From NCBI RefSeq assembly GCF_965641715.1, contig NZ_OZ282453.1: 64,000 bases of DNA; one strand, given 5' to 3'. The stretch comes from Escherichia coli (GTDB taxonomy: Bacteria; Pseudomonadota; Gammaproteobacteria; Enterobacterales; Enterobacteriaceae). Shown in pieces: positions 43,701-46,700 of this stretch. The first letter of the stretch is position 1. Every line of letters starts with the position of its first letter. Position numbers: made by a program.

Positions 43701-46700
43701 GCGGCACTGGCACTGGTAGCTGCCGCGCTTTTTGAGGACTCTGCAGCGGCAGCACTTTTTGATGCTTCAGTGGCCTTTGTTGATGCCGTTCCTGCGCTGG
43801 AAGTCGCTGACTGAGCCGACGACGCGGCCTGTCCGGCTGACGTGCTGGCTGCGCGTGCTGAGTCCGCAGCATCAGTCGCATGGGTTGCCGCCTCACGGGC
43901 TGATGTGCTGGCATCACTGGCTGACTTCTTCGCGGCTGCCGTGTTCTGTGCCACCACGGACGCGTTACGCGCCACCTCTTCCACCATCAGCTCAAAACGG
44001 CGCAGTGCCTCCGGACGGGCATCATCCTCCGTCATGGCACCGAGAAAATCATTCAGCGTACCGGGTCGGGAATCTTCATACACGGTGATGGTCCCGGCAT
44101 GTGACGGCGGGAATCCTTCCACCAACAGAATAACGCTGTACTGACCGTACTCAACGTCCATGCTGTAACGCCCGGCTTCATCCGGATTTTCTGAGGCCAG
44201 CGTGTTCACCACCACCGTGGTACTGTTACGTTTTGCTTTCAGCTGGATTGTGCAGTTCTGTACCGGTTTTCCTGTGCCGTCTTTCAGTACACCTGAAATC
44301 TTTACTGCCATATTCACCCCACAAAAAAGCCCGCCTGAACCGGCGGGCTGTCATAACACTGTGTTACCTGGCTAATCAGAATTTATAACCGACACCCACG
44401 ATGAAACCGTCAGTGCGCCAGTCACCACTGCCGGAGCCTTCATAAGCGACATCAATGGCCACGGATTCGGTCGGGTTAAACTGCACGCCAGCCCCCCACG
44501 CCAGAGACGTGTTGCTGTGGCGACCGTCATCACTTCCGGTCAGCACGTCGTGCGTTTTCCCCTTGTTATCAGTTACGCGGAGATAATCCCCGGAAAAAGT
44601 CGACACACGGCTGTAAGCCACACCCGCCATCGCATACGCGCTGAACCATTCATTCACGCGCACAGACGGCCCCGCCATCACGCTGAACCAGCGGTTACGC
44701 ACGGAATCTTCATGCCAGCGGGTATCGCTGTAACGGGTCAGCTGGCGATTCTTGTCTCCTGCATAGCTGAACGACGTCACCATCCCCAGTGTGTCCGTAA
44801 ACTCATAACGGTATTTCACGTTAATCCCGTTCAGATCATCGCTGCCGGGGACGTTCGTCGAGGCATGAAGATAGCCCGCGCTCAGCGTGGACTGATGTTC
44901 AGACGCCCATGCAGGCGCACAGGATGCGGCCAGACAAATGGCTGCGGACAAAATGGCGGCATAAAGTTTACGCATAATTACCTCTCGCTTTTCTGCAATA
45001 AAAAAGGCACCATTTCTGGTGCCCTTATCTGGGTTATAAATATTTCAACGGATACTGATACCGGAAGCCGCTTTTTTGGTCACTATCACCGTACAGTCTG
45101 TGATGTTACCTGCACCCTGATTGCCTTTCTGGAAAATCCTGAACTCCAGGGTGACGTTCCCACCACCACTCGGCATATCAATAACCGCGCTGTAACTCCC
45201 GGGAACTGCCCCTCTGGTTTCTCTGGATGCGATTAAGACACCGTTTTTGCGAACTTCAAAACCATAACCCGTGTACCTTGTACCTCCCGGGTTATTACCG
45301 CTCCCCGGATTGTCATACGCCACACCGTTAAAAATAATGGGCGGAATAATGATTTGACGGTCAAAGTTATGATCATCGCTGATGGTGACGGTAACCGTCC
45401 CGTCGGGTGTTTCCGTGTTCCCCCACGTACCGACTTTTTTCGGGAAGGCTTTTGATACAGCTTTAACGAAATCTCCTCTGACCTGGGTCGCCTCCAGCAT
45501 GCCCTTAATCGTACAGTTCTGGTTAATCGTGACATTGTTGAGCGTTCCTGAGTTCGCATTCACACTGCCACTGATATCCGCATTTTTCGCCGTCAGTCTC
45601 CCGTCTGGTGTCAGGGAAAATGCCGGCGGATTTCCACCGCTGGTAATGGTGGGAGCCGTCAGGCGTTTCAGGAACACGTCGTTCATGAATATCTGATCGC
45701 CCTGACCAACAAACATCGGTTTTGTGTTGCCATTCGCAGGATTAACCATCGCAATCCTGTCCGCCGCCAGCAGCACCTGACTCTGCATGCCGTCAGGGGT
45801 GTTCTCAATACCGGCACCAATACCCGCGATATAAAGGCGTCCGTCCTGCATCTGCTGCAGCTTCACAGCCCACATGCTGTTCAGGTTATTATTTGTATCA
45901 ACCTGAACCTTCTGTATCTGCTGAATTGCAGCACTCTGGTCTTCCAGTTTCTTATTGACGGTCTGCGTGATTTCATTGCTGACATCCGTAATGGACGTCC
46001 TGATTTCAGCCAGGTCAGGCGCAAGCTGACCGTTATCAATCTGCGTCCACAGCTCCTGAGCCAGATGGGTTTTCCCTATCTCGCCTTTGAAAAAATCCAG
46101 ATAACCGGATGCATCATCACTCGGCTGACCAACAGCCTCCACGAATGCCGATTTGCCAACGGTGTTCACACTGCGGATATAAAAGTAATAATCATGGCCC
46201 GGTTTGATATTGATACTGGCGGCTATCCAGTACAGCGCCGTGCCAAGATAGCGTGCTGTGGTTTCAACCTGCCTGATATCCGCAATCCGCTTTTCCGAGA
46301 ACCAGAACTCAAACTGTACCGTCGGATCATAAACCGCAAGATGCGGCGTGGCGGTTATCTGAAAATAGCCCGGCGTCAGCTCAATCCGCGACGGCGCTGC
46401 CGGTGCGGCAATCCGGAACGATACCGACGCCGGATCGCCCTGCTGCCCCCACGCATTTACTGCCCGGACTGTCAGCCTGTAGTTCCCCAGCGCCAGTTGT
46501 GTGAAGCGGTAAGTGGTTTCCGTCGTCCGGGCCGTGCTGACCAGCCACTCACTGCCGTCATCCGCTGTTACGGTCAGACGGAGCAGGAAGCTCACGCCCT
46601 TCACCACCTTCGGCGTGTCCCAGCGCGCCAGCACCTGATATTCCCCGCTGTCTGCGGTGACTTCGGCAGTCAGGTGCTGCACCGCTGGCGGCGTGACACC

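What the first reader, a model, noticed from the sequence alone, without database searches (positions are those of the whole stretch)
44323..44975. lom is a self-contained moron with its own terminator inside the tail operon
lom is flanked by 60-70 bp spacers and followed by a strong rho-independent terminator immediately before the stf ribosome-binding site. This fits lysogen-expressed conversion genes. Lom/Ail-family barrels are associated with adhesion and serum resistance, so the prophage may alter the host surface phenotype.
Basis: partly seen in the sequence, partly recalled or inferred. Interest (0 to 1): 0.3.

Follow-up and report, generated by a model that had tools for sequence, protein, structure and literature searches.

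The report
Known lambda-type lom gene between two terminators
This is the well-known lom outer-membrane-protein gene of lambda-like prophages, sitting between the tail genes J and stf and bracketed by two transcription terminators; it is present in most E. coli genomes, so it is ordinary, and the sequence shows no promoter of its own.

Summary
Window 44376..44975 (- strand) encodes a full-length 199-aa Ail/Lom barrel (Pfam E=2.4e-119). It lies 69 nt after J and 64 nt before stf. A strong hairpin plus T6 ends 11 nt before the stf ATG.

- A second intrinsic terminator (45026..45003 plus T6) lies between J and lom. Compensatory base changes support it across 23 distinct sequences, and lambda has a different hairpin at the same place.
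- Only about 24 nt separate that T-tract from the lom ATG. No sigma-70-like promoter stands out from background in the 740 nt upstream, in 88 related upstream regions, or in lambda.
- lom has the same G+C content as the late operon.

So "own RBS and own terminator" is supported, but "self-contained" (own promoter) is not shown.

The region is about 95% identical to phage 434, whose GenBank record already annotates both terminators. Similar DNA is found in 4731 of 5426 complete E. coli genomes. Lambda lom is a textbook prophage-expressed cargo gene, but this allele is only about 50% identical to lambda Lom.

Verdict: already known, low interest. The one open point is where lom transcription starts in a lysogen.

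The parts
45045..48542 (-). J (tip attachment / host-specificity protein), 1165 aa. It is the last essential tail gene upstream of lom. Its C-terminal receptor-binding part (about 45045..45550) belongs to the block that diverges from lambda.
   Evidence: ORF; six gpJ Pfam domains; PDB 8iyk J; identity profile against lambda.
45000..45026 (-). Upstream intrinsic terminator ('tJ'): AAGGGCACCA-GAAA-TGGTGCCTTT followed by TTT, giving a T6 run at 45005..45000. It lies between the J stop codon and the lom RBS.
   Evidence: Terminator scan; fold of -15.1 kcal/mol, rank 5 of 244 T-runs. Covariation: 3 pairs with compensatory changes, 91.7% of cells paired against 35-62% when the partner is slid. Annotated as a terminator in phage 434 and phage Ayreon. 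Lambda has a different hairpin, CGTCCG-GGAA-CGGGCG followed by TTTTATT, at the same place.
44976..44999 (-). lom leader ATTGCAGAAAAGCGAGAGGTAATT, containing the Shine-Dalgarno GAGAGG (44986..44981). It is nearly invariant across relatives and too short to hold a promoter.
   Evidence: Sequence; alignment of 23 distinct variants. Per-site diversity is 0.009, against 0.11 at lom third codon positions.
44376..44975 (-). lom: a 199-aa Ail/Lom-family 8-stranded outer-membrane barrel of the '434-type' allele. A Sec-type signal peptide (MRKLYAAILSAAICLAASCAPAWA) is encoded at 44975..44904. The protein ends in ...GVGYKF.
   Evidence: Translation; Pfam PF06316 1-199/199, E=2.4e-119; PHROG 108 'Lom outer membrane protein'. 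PDB matches: lambda Lom 9wso_C (E=4e-49), OmpX, Ail. About 95-97% identical to the phage 434 / Ayreon allele and about 50% to lambda Lom. dN/dS is about 0.21 over 113 distinct alleles.
44354..44366 (.). Perfect 13-bp palindrome TAACAC-N-GTGTTA in the lom 3' untranslated spacer. It is invariant in nearly all relatives and in lambda. Its function is unknown.
   Evidence: a single occurrence in the window, with 0.10 expected by chance.
44323..44349 (-). Downstream intrinsic terminator ('t-lom'): AGCCCGCC-GGTTCA-GGCGGGCT with a T6 run at 44328..44323.
   Evidence: -17.6 kcal/mol, rank 1 of 244. Nearly identical in lambda. Annotated as a terminator in phage 434 and Ayreon. Locus L157 has a different hairpin plus T7 at the same place, in front of a different stf allele.
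41915..44320 (-). stf (side tail fibre), with RBS GGGG at 44320..44317 and ATG at 44311; 798 aa. No intact tfa follows it.
   Evidence: Pfam phage_tail_N 1-134; PDB 9e7m tail fibre residues 1-94; only a 3' remnant of tfa is seen.

Best explanation
**What it is.** This is the 434-type allele of the lambda lom gene. lom is an accessory (cargo) gene for an Ail/Lom outer-membrane beta-barrel. It is carried in the J-stf slot of the late tail operon of a lambda-like prophage integrated at the Rac locus of an E. coli-type chromosome.

**Anatomy (shown).** The order is: J stop, intrinsic terminator, 24-nt leader with Shine-Dalgarno sequence, lom, 64-nt spacer ending in a second intrinsic terminator, stf RBS.

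**Mechanism (inferred from lambda biology).**
- After induction, RNA polymerase modified by the Q antiterminator ignores both terminators. lom is then co-transcribed with J and stf, and it is translated from its own RBS.
- In the repressed prophage, polymerase is unmodified. The upstream terminator stops stray transcription coming out of J. The downstream terminator stops any lom transcript before stf. The expected product is a monocistronic mRNA of about 0.7 kb.
- Lysogenic expression is documented for the lambda allele. It must start either from a weak or non-consensus promoter overlapping the upstream hairpin, or from inside the 3' end of J with leak through that hairpin. This step is not resolved by sequence.

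**Fate of the protein (inferred).** It is exported by Sec, is inserted into the outer membrane by BAM (the beta-barrel assembly machinery), and may change surface properties such as adhesion.
For: - Identity of the gene.
- Position and spacers.
- Both terminators. Their structure is under selection, shown by compensatory changes, by different hairpin sequences at the same position in lambda, and by a different downstream hairpin in L157.
- Both untranslated spacers are about 10 times less diverse than lom synonymous sites.
- Of 140 IMG/VR loci with a complete lom, 138 carry the usual upstream hairpin-leader and 139 the usual lom-stf spacer. The three exceptions are a divergent allele (L059), an IS66 insertion (L113) and an alternative terminator (L157).
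- The same layout is annotated in phages 434 and Ayreon.
- lom is under purifying selection, with dN/dS about 0.21.
- Literature on prophage expression and the moron label for lambda lom: PMC3594210, PMC7067206, PMC1151598. Q is required for the late transcript (bioRxiv 10.1101/2023.05.14.540688).
- Chromosomal context at the Rac locus.
Against: - No promoter-like site above background lies upstream of lom, in the window or in any relative. No PhoP-box-like site is present either.
- Third codon positions in the 3' end of J show no conserved stretch that would mark an embedded promoter.
- One microarray study failed to detect lom in a lambda lysogen and states that little is known about the lom promoter (PMC2147009).
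- The expression and adhesion data concern the lambda allele, which is only about 50% identical.
- Nothing here measures transcription or termination.
Confidence: 0.6

Rival explanations
1. lom has no promoter of its own and is purely a late gene. The two terminators keep it silent without Q. The lom signal seen in lysogen cultures would then come from the small spontaneously induced sub-population, or from trace leak through the upstream terminator.
For: - No promoter is found in the window, in 88 relatives, or in lambda.
- Only 24 nt lie between the upstream T-tract and the ATG.
- lom has the composition of the late operon.
- lom was not detected in one lambda lysogen array study (PMC2147009).
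Against: Several independent reports treat lambda lom as expressed in lysogens (cited in PMC1151598, PMC7067206, PMC3594210). In the phi24B lysogen, a distantly related lom in a different context was expressed at similar levels with or without induction (PMC3342100). A consensus scan cannot exclude weak or activator-dependent promoters.
Confidence: 0.2
2. The promoter lies inside the 3' end of J, and the upstream hairpin acts as a leaky attenuator that sets a low level of lom expression. In the window the candidate is TTGATA-16-GAACGT, with its -35 hexamer at 45181.
For: A TTGATA -35-like hexamer about 210 nt upstream of lom recurs in several J types. In some alleles it pairs with a good -10 (TTGATA-16-TAGCGT, PWM score 9.5). 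The window site scores at the 99.925th percentile.
Against: TTGATA encodes the conserved I-D-M of J, so its recurrence is explained by coding. The -10 varies among alleles and is poor in the window. The score is within chance expectation for the length scanned. Synonymous sites show no conservation there.
Confidence: 0.12
3. The two hairpins act mainly as RNA 3'-end stabilisers or processing barriers within the antiterminated late transcript. They would set the relative amounts of J, lom and stf mRNA. Together with the invariant spacers they may also serve as recombination anchors for swapping J-tip, lom and stf alleles. On this reading they are not stops for lysogenic transcription.
For: - Other hairpin plus T-run sites occur inside the late operon, near 57900-57940 upstream of the capsid-gene ORF and at 59548..59527.
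- The spacers are far more conserved than the flanking coding DNA.
- Mosaic boundaries fall at these spacers. J C-terminal types vary against a constant lom, and three lom alleles share the last 27 codons, the 3' UTR and the terminator.
Against: Both elements have the full canonical intrinsic-terminator form: a G+C-rich stem followed directly by T6. The roles are not mutually exclusive. No RNA data are available.
Confidence: 0.08

Closest known systems
Bacteriophage lambda lom (J02459 / NC_001416, 18965..19585) with its flanking spacers
   Same: - Same slot, J-lom-stf.
- Same layout: hairpin plus T-run before lom and hairpin plus T6 after it.
- The last roughly 75 nt of lom, the 3' spacer, the terminator and the stf start are 90% or more identical.
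- Same protein family, now with a solved lambda Lom structure (9wso_C).
   Different: - The protein is only about 50% identical and is 199 aa rather than 206 aa.
- The upstream hairpin has a different sequence.
- The J receptor-binding domain is of a different type.
- All experimental data (lysogen expression, adhesion) are for the lambda allele.
Phage 434 gene CPT_434_22 (OL657226.1) and phage Ayreon lom (MF807953.1)
   Same: About 95% nucleotide identity over J 3' end, lom and stf 5' end. Both flanking terminators are already annotated in these records.
   Different: Only point differences. The window copy sits in a prophage whose tfa is reduced to a remnant.
Morons as defined for HK97/HK022 (Juhala et al. 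2000; reviewed in PMC3594210), for example HK97 gp22 and gp23 between I and J
   Same: An extra gene between tail genes that are adjacent in another lambdoid phage, with a factor-independent terminator. The HK97 record annotates 'moron product' genes with putative terminators.
   Different: No recognisable sigma-70 promoter and no compositional difference from neighbours here. No empty J-stf junction was found among close relatives.
N15 genes 22-23-cor in the J / tail-fibre slot
   Same: Cargo genes after J, followed by a hairpin plus T-run immediately before the fibre-gene RBS. The junction TTTTTTATTGCCCAAAAGGAGG resembles the leader here, TTTTTTATTGCAGAAAAGCGAGAGG.
   Different: Unrelated cargo (Cor superinfection exclusion). 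No terminator is annotated directly after J.
Chromosomal and plasmid Ail/OmpX/Rck/PagC barrels
   Same: Same Pfam family, and matches to solved OmpX and Ail structures at E about 1e-18.
   Different: Scores are below NCBIfam equivalog cut-offs for Rck (114 against 258 bits) and OmpX (99 against 176 bits). Rck/Ail-type serum resistance therefore cannot be transferred by homology alone.

Membership tests
Ail/Lom outer-membrane beta-barrel (Pfam PF06316) | Full-length match to the family profile above the curated cut-off | tested here: met
   396.7 bits against a cut-off of 23, covering 1-199 of 199. PHROG 108 'Lom outer membrane protein', E=2.5e-109.
Ail/Lom outer-membrane beta-barrel (Pfam PF06316) | Sequence relationship to solved 8-stranded barrels | tested here: met
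   PDB lambda Lom 9wso_C (E=4.3e-49), OmpX 1qj8 family (1.8e-18), Ail 3qra (1.8e-17). No structure was predicted here.
Ail/Lom outer-membrane beta-barrel (Pfam PF06316) | Export signals: N-terminal Sec signal peptide and C-terminal aromatic residue (BAM beta-signal) | tested here: met
   Read directly from the translation: MRK, then a hydrophobic core, then A-W-A before SEHQ; the C-terminus is ...GVGYKF. No signal-peptide predictor was available.
Ail/Lom outer-membrane beta-barrel (Pfam PF06316) | Adhesion or serum-resistance phenotype | not testable with these tools
   Literature only, for the lambda allele (adhesion; cited in PMC3594210). Serum resistance in lambda is attributed to Bor (PMC1151598).
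Moron (Juhala et al. 2000 sense) | Lies between two genes that are adjacent in a related phage | tested here: met
   HK97 has J followed by stf with no lom, but HK97 is only a distant relative. Of 80 close stf loci, none has a clean empty site; the stf copies without lom are a Nu1-lom deletion and an IS200 insertion.
Moron (Juhala et al. 2000 sense) | Own factor-independent terminator downstream | tested here: met
   44349..44328 plus T6, -17.6 kcal/mol, rank 1 of 244.
Moron (Juhala et al. 2000 sense) | Own sigma-70 promoter upstream | tested here: inconclusive
   No site above background in the 740 nt upstream, in 88 relatives, or in lambda. There is no room downstream of the upstream terminator (24 nt). 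A sequence scan cannot exclude weak or activated promoters.
Moron (Juhala et al. 2000 sense) | Nucleotide composition differing from neighbours | tested here: not met
   lom G+C 0.565 (GC3 0.635) against late operon 0.569 and J 0.562 (GC3 0.663).
Moron (Juhala et al. 2000 sense) | Transcribed from the repressed prophage | not testable with these tools
   Reported for lambda lom (PMC7067206, PMC1151598), but not detected in PMC2147009.
Intrinsic (rho-independent) terminator, both sites | G+C-rich stem, short loop, immediately followed by a T-run on the sense strand | tested here: met
Intrinsic (rho-independent) terminator, both sites | Structure maintained by compensatory change | tested here: met
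   Upstream site: G-C to A-U in 5, C-G to U-A in 5, and A-U to U-A in 1 of 23 distinct sequences; 0 of 500 shuffles reach the covariation score. The downstream site is nearly invariant and so uninformative, but a different hairpin occupies the site in L157.
Intrinsic (rho-independent) terminator, both sites | Actual termination of unmodified RNA polymerase and read-through by Q-modified polymerase | not testable with these tools
   Needs in vitro transcription or Term-seq.

The most novel reading that the evidence does not exclude
The terminator-gene-terminator bracket, with no room for a promoter and none detectable, may mean that this widespread lom allele is not an independently transcribed moron at all. 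It would then be silent in true lysogens and made only when Q is present, or by leak through the upstream hairpin. In that case the textbook 'lysogenic conversion' role of lom would need revisiting, and its real function would be in the lytic cycle.
Probability: 0.18. Interest if true: 0.35.

Novelty: already known. Interest (0 to 1): 0.1.

Why it matters
Little is at stake for discovery. lom, its position, its terminators and its status as a prophage cargo gene are already in the literature and in GenBank annotation. Similar DNA is found in 87% of complete E. coli genomes, and three quarters carry a copy covering at least 80% of it.

The useful residue is a correction and a pointer. lom is bracketed by two selected terminators rather than followed by one. 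Neither this allele nor lambda shows a recognisable promoter. The often repeated claim that lom is an autonomous, lysogen-expressed unit therefore still lacks a mapped transcription start, which a simple 5'-end mapping experiment could settle.

Tried and rejected
- **Consensus promoter scan and my own PWM scan** of the minus strand, about 44960..45700. Nothing exceeded chance.
- **The same scan on 88 distinct related upstream regions and on lambda**, looking for a positionally conserved site. Only the coding-constrained TTGATA recurred.
- **Third-codon-position conservation in the last 199 codons of J**, as a footprint of an embedded promoter. No footprint was seen.
- **PhoP-box search**, because pagC and ail relatives are PhoP-regulated. 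There were no hits near lom.
- **Rfam scan of 41000..49000.** It gave only sub-threshold chance hits; a Trp_leader hit at E=0.86 merely reflects the terminator hairpin.
- **Search for a clean lom-less 'empty site' among 80 close stf loci.** The two stf loci without lom are a deletion fusing Nu1 to the lom 3' end (L060) and an IS200 insertion (L064). L113 is an IS66 insertion.
- **G+C and GC3 comparison** for a foreign-composition signature. None was found.
- **Literature search for a mapped lom promoter or TSS.** None was found. Liu et al. 2013 and Casjens & Hendrix 2015 are not held.
- **Attempt to identify the partner chains in PDB 9wso (lambda Lom).** Neither J nor Stf is among them.

Full report
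**Observation**

The feature lies on the minus strand.
- The ORF at 44975..44376 encodes 199 aa. It matches Pfam Ail_Lom over its whole length (1-199 of 199, E=2.4e-119) and PHROG 108 'Lom outer membrane protein'.
- Its closest solved relative is lambda Lom (PDB 9wso_C, E=4e-49), followed by OmpX and Ail.
- The translation shows a Sec-type signal peptide ending in A-W-A and a C-terminal ...GYKF.
- Upstream is J (48542..45045, six gpJ domains). Downstream is stf (ATG at 44311, with phage_tail_N starting at residue 1).
- The spacers are 69 nt and 64 nt.
- The downstream hairpin is AGCCCGCC-GGTTCA-GGCGGGCT, followed by a T6 run at 44328..44323, then GGGG and the stf ATG.
- At -17.6 kcal/mol, it is the most stable hairpin preceding any of the 244 runs of 5 or more T in the window.

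A second canonical intrinsic terminator lies between J and lom.
- Its sequence is AAGGGCACCA-GAAA-TGGTGCCTTT plus TTT (45026..45000). It folds at -15.1 kcal/mol and ranks 5th of 244.
- I fetched 160 related loci from IMG/VR. Of these, 140 have a complete lom with flanks.
- The upstream hairpin occurs as GGGCACC/GGTGCC, GGGCGCC/GGCGCC and GGGCGTC/GACGCC, and with other loops.
- On 23 distinct sequences, three pairs show compensatory double changes. In total 91.7% of cells pair, against 35-62% when the partner is slid. None of 500 shuffles reaches the covariation score.
- Lambda has an unrelated hairpin, CGTCCG-GGAA-CGGGCG followed by TTTTATT, at the same position.

The downstream terminator is almost invariant and is shared with lambda. 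In locus L157 a different hairpin plus T7 precedes a different stf allele.

Both hairpins are already annotated as terminators in the GenBank records of phage 434 and phage Ayreon. Those records are about 95% identical to the window over J 3' end, lom and stf 5' end.

**Promoter**

- From the end of the upstream T-tract to the lom ATG there are 24 nt: ATTGCAGAAAAGCGAGAGGTAATT, which includes the Shine-Dalgarno sequence. A sigma-70 promoter cannot fit downstream of the terminator.
- The consensus scan finds no sense-strand promoter near lom.
- My PWM scan of about 740 nt upstream gives a best score at the 99.97th percentile of the window-wide distribution, with three hits above the 99.9th percentile. 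That is what chance predicts for the number of positions scanned.
- In 88 distinct related upstream regions, the only recurring element is TTGATA about 210 nt upstream. It encodes the conserved I-D-M of J and is paired with variable -10 hexamers.
- Lambda has no sense-strand candidate upstream of lom either.
- Third codon positions in the last 199 codons of J vary evenly, so there is no footprint of an embedded promoter.
- No PhoP-box-like sequence lies near lom.

The literature I could read calls lambda lom prophage-expressed and moron-encoded (PMC3594210, PMC7067206, PMC1151598). One array study did not detect it and states that little is known about the lom promoter (PMC2147009). No paper in the library maps the promoter.

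**Mosaic structure and selection**

- Against lambda, identity is 90% or more in J down to about 45550. It falls to about 50-65% through the J receptor-binding domain, the J-lom spacer and most of lom. It returns to 90% or more at about 44450 and stays there through the last roughly 25 codons of lom, the 3' spacer, the terminator and the stf start.
- Among the IMG/VR loci, the J C-terminus falls into types of about 50% or about 90-96% identity to the window, against a nearly constant lom.
- At least three lom alleles occupy the slot: the window/434 type (199 aa), the lambda type (206 aa) and the L059 type (207 aa). Pairwise identity is 47-61%. All three share the final 27 residues and the flanking signals.
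- lom is under purifying selection, with dN/dS about 0.21, similar to the neighbouring stf N-terminal region (0.19).
- The two untranslated spacers have per-site diversity of 0.009 and 0.011. The values for lom are 0.11 at third codon positions and 0.034 at first and second positions. The spacers are therefore constrained signals, recombination anchors, or both.
- lom G+C (0.565) equals that of the late operon (0.569).

**The slot in other phages**

- HK97 has J followed by stf without lom. Its record annotates other tail-operon 'moron products' with putative terminators.
- N15 has genes 22, 23 and cor after J, then a terminator immediately before the fibre-gene RBS.
- Short-tailed Stx phages carry a Lom that is about 41% identical, in a different neighbourhood.

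This supports the general idea that the end of the tail operon collects cargo genes. It does not show that this cassette travels with a promoter.

**Context and prevalence**

The window is E. coli-type chromosome. The prophage tail end abuts ykgJ-like, uspF, ompN and nifJ/ydbK, which is the Rac locus. A 751-nt query spanning the cassette matches in 4731 of 5426 complete E. coli genomes, with a median of 2 and up to 14 places per genome; 4086 genomes have a place covering at least 80% of it.

**Mechanism and verdict**

- Shown: the gene, its RBS and two structurally selected intrinsic terminators.
- Inferred from established lambda biology: Q-modified polymerase reads through both terminators, so lom is a late co-transcript. 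Without Q, the upstream terminator insulates lom from J and the downstream one insulates stf from lom. Any lysogenic lom mRNA would then be monocistronic and about 0.7 kb long.
- Unresolved: where that mRNA starts.

The feature is already known and nearly ubiquitous, so interest is low.

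Noticed in passing
window 44354..44366: A perfect 13-bp palindrome, TAACAC-N-GTGTTA, lies between the lom stop codon and the downstream terminator. It is invariant in nearly all of 140 related loci and in lambda. It occurs once in the window, with 0.10 expected. No function is known to me. It could be a protein-binding site or a small RNA hairpin.
   Followed up: partly
window 44976..45008 and 44312..44375: Both untranslated spacers around lom are about 10 times less diverse than lom synonymous sites (0.009 and 0.011 against 0.11). This is more conservation than a T-tract plus Shine-Dalgarno sequence alone would explain. They may serve as recombination anchors between the J-tip, lom and stf modules.
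   Followed up: partly
window 45027..45044; related loci L005-L164: The motif (T)TATAACCC, between the J stop codon and the upstream hairpin, is kept across different J C-terminal types but is absent in lambda. In the RNA fold its ACC(C) pairs with part of the lom Shine-Dalgarno region.
   Followed up: no
L059 2313..2936; L003 966..1586; window 44376..44975: Three Lom alleles (47-61% identical to each other) occupy the same slot. They share an identical 27-residue C-terminus (…AYEGSGSGDWRTDGFIVGVGYKF), so most of the barrel and its loops vary while the last strand and the flanking signals are fixed.
   Followed up: partly
window 39033..39713 and 39801..40166 (+): The porin gene ompN next to the prophage is split into two ORFs (Porin_1 profile positions 1-192 and 229-337). 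It looks like a pseudogene.
   Followed up: partly
window about 41700..41915 (-): No intact tail-fibre assembly gene (tfa) follows stf. Only a 3' remnant reading ...[23 protein letters not shown] is present, together with a partial Rfam IS009 hit at 41753..41823. The side-fibre module of this prophage appears degraded.
   Followed up: partly
window about 57900..57940 (-), 59548..59527 (-), about 53700..53760 (-): Further hairpin plus T-run sites lie inside the late operon on the sense strand. One, AAGGCCGC-ATGT-GCGGCTTTTTTT, lies at the 5' end of the 350-aa ORF 56872..57924, which I take (unchecked) to be the major capsid gene. They may be internal terminators overridden by Q, or mRNA stabilisers.
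   Followed up: no
L166 7022..7070 (phage N15): The N15 junction from the terminator after cor to the fibre-gene RBS (GGGTTTTTTATTGCCCAAAAGGAGG) resembles the junction from terminator to lom RBS here (GCCTTTTTTATTGCAGAAAAGCGAGAGG). This may be a shared ancestral junction, or coincidence.
   Followed up: no
PDB 9wso chain C: A solved structure containing lambda Lom exists (1 entry, 2 chains). Its partner chains are neither J nor Stf. I could not find an accompanying paper in the library. It may carry new functional information on Lom.
   Followed up: partly
L113 1407..2945; L064 about 2500..2790; L060 about 2870..2930: The lom neighbourhood is a frequent site of rearrangement in prophages. Examples are an IS66 insertion 21 nt before the lom ATG, an IS200-type insertion replacing lom in front of stf, and a deletion fusing Nu1 codon 17 to the last codons of lom.
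   Followed up: yes
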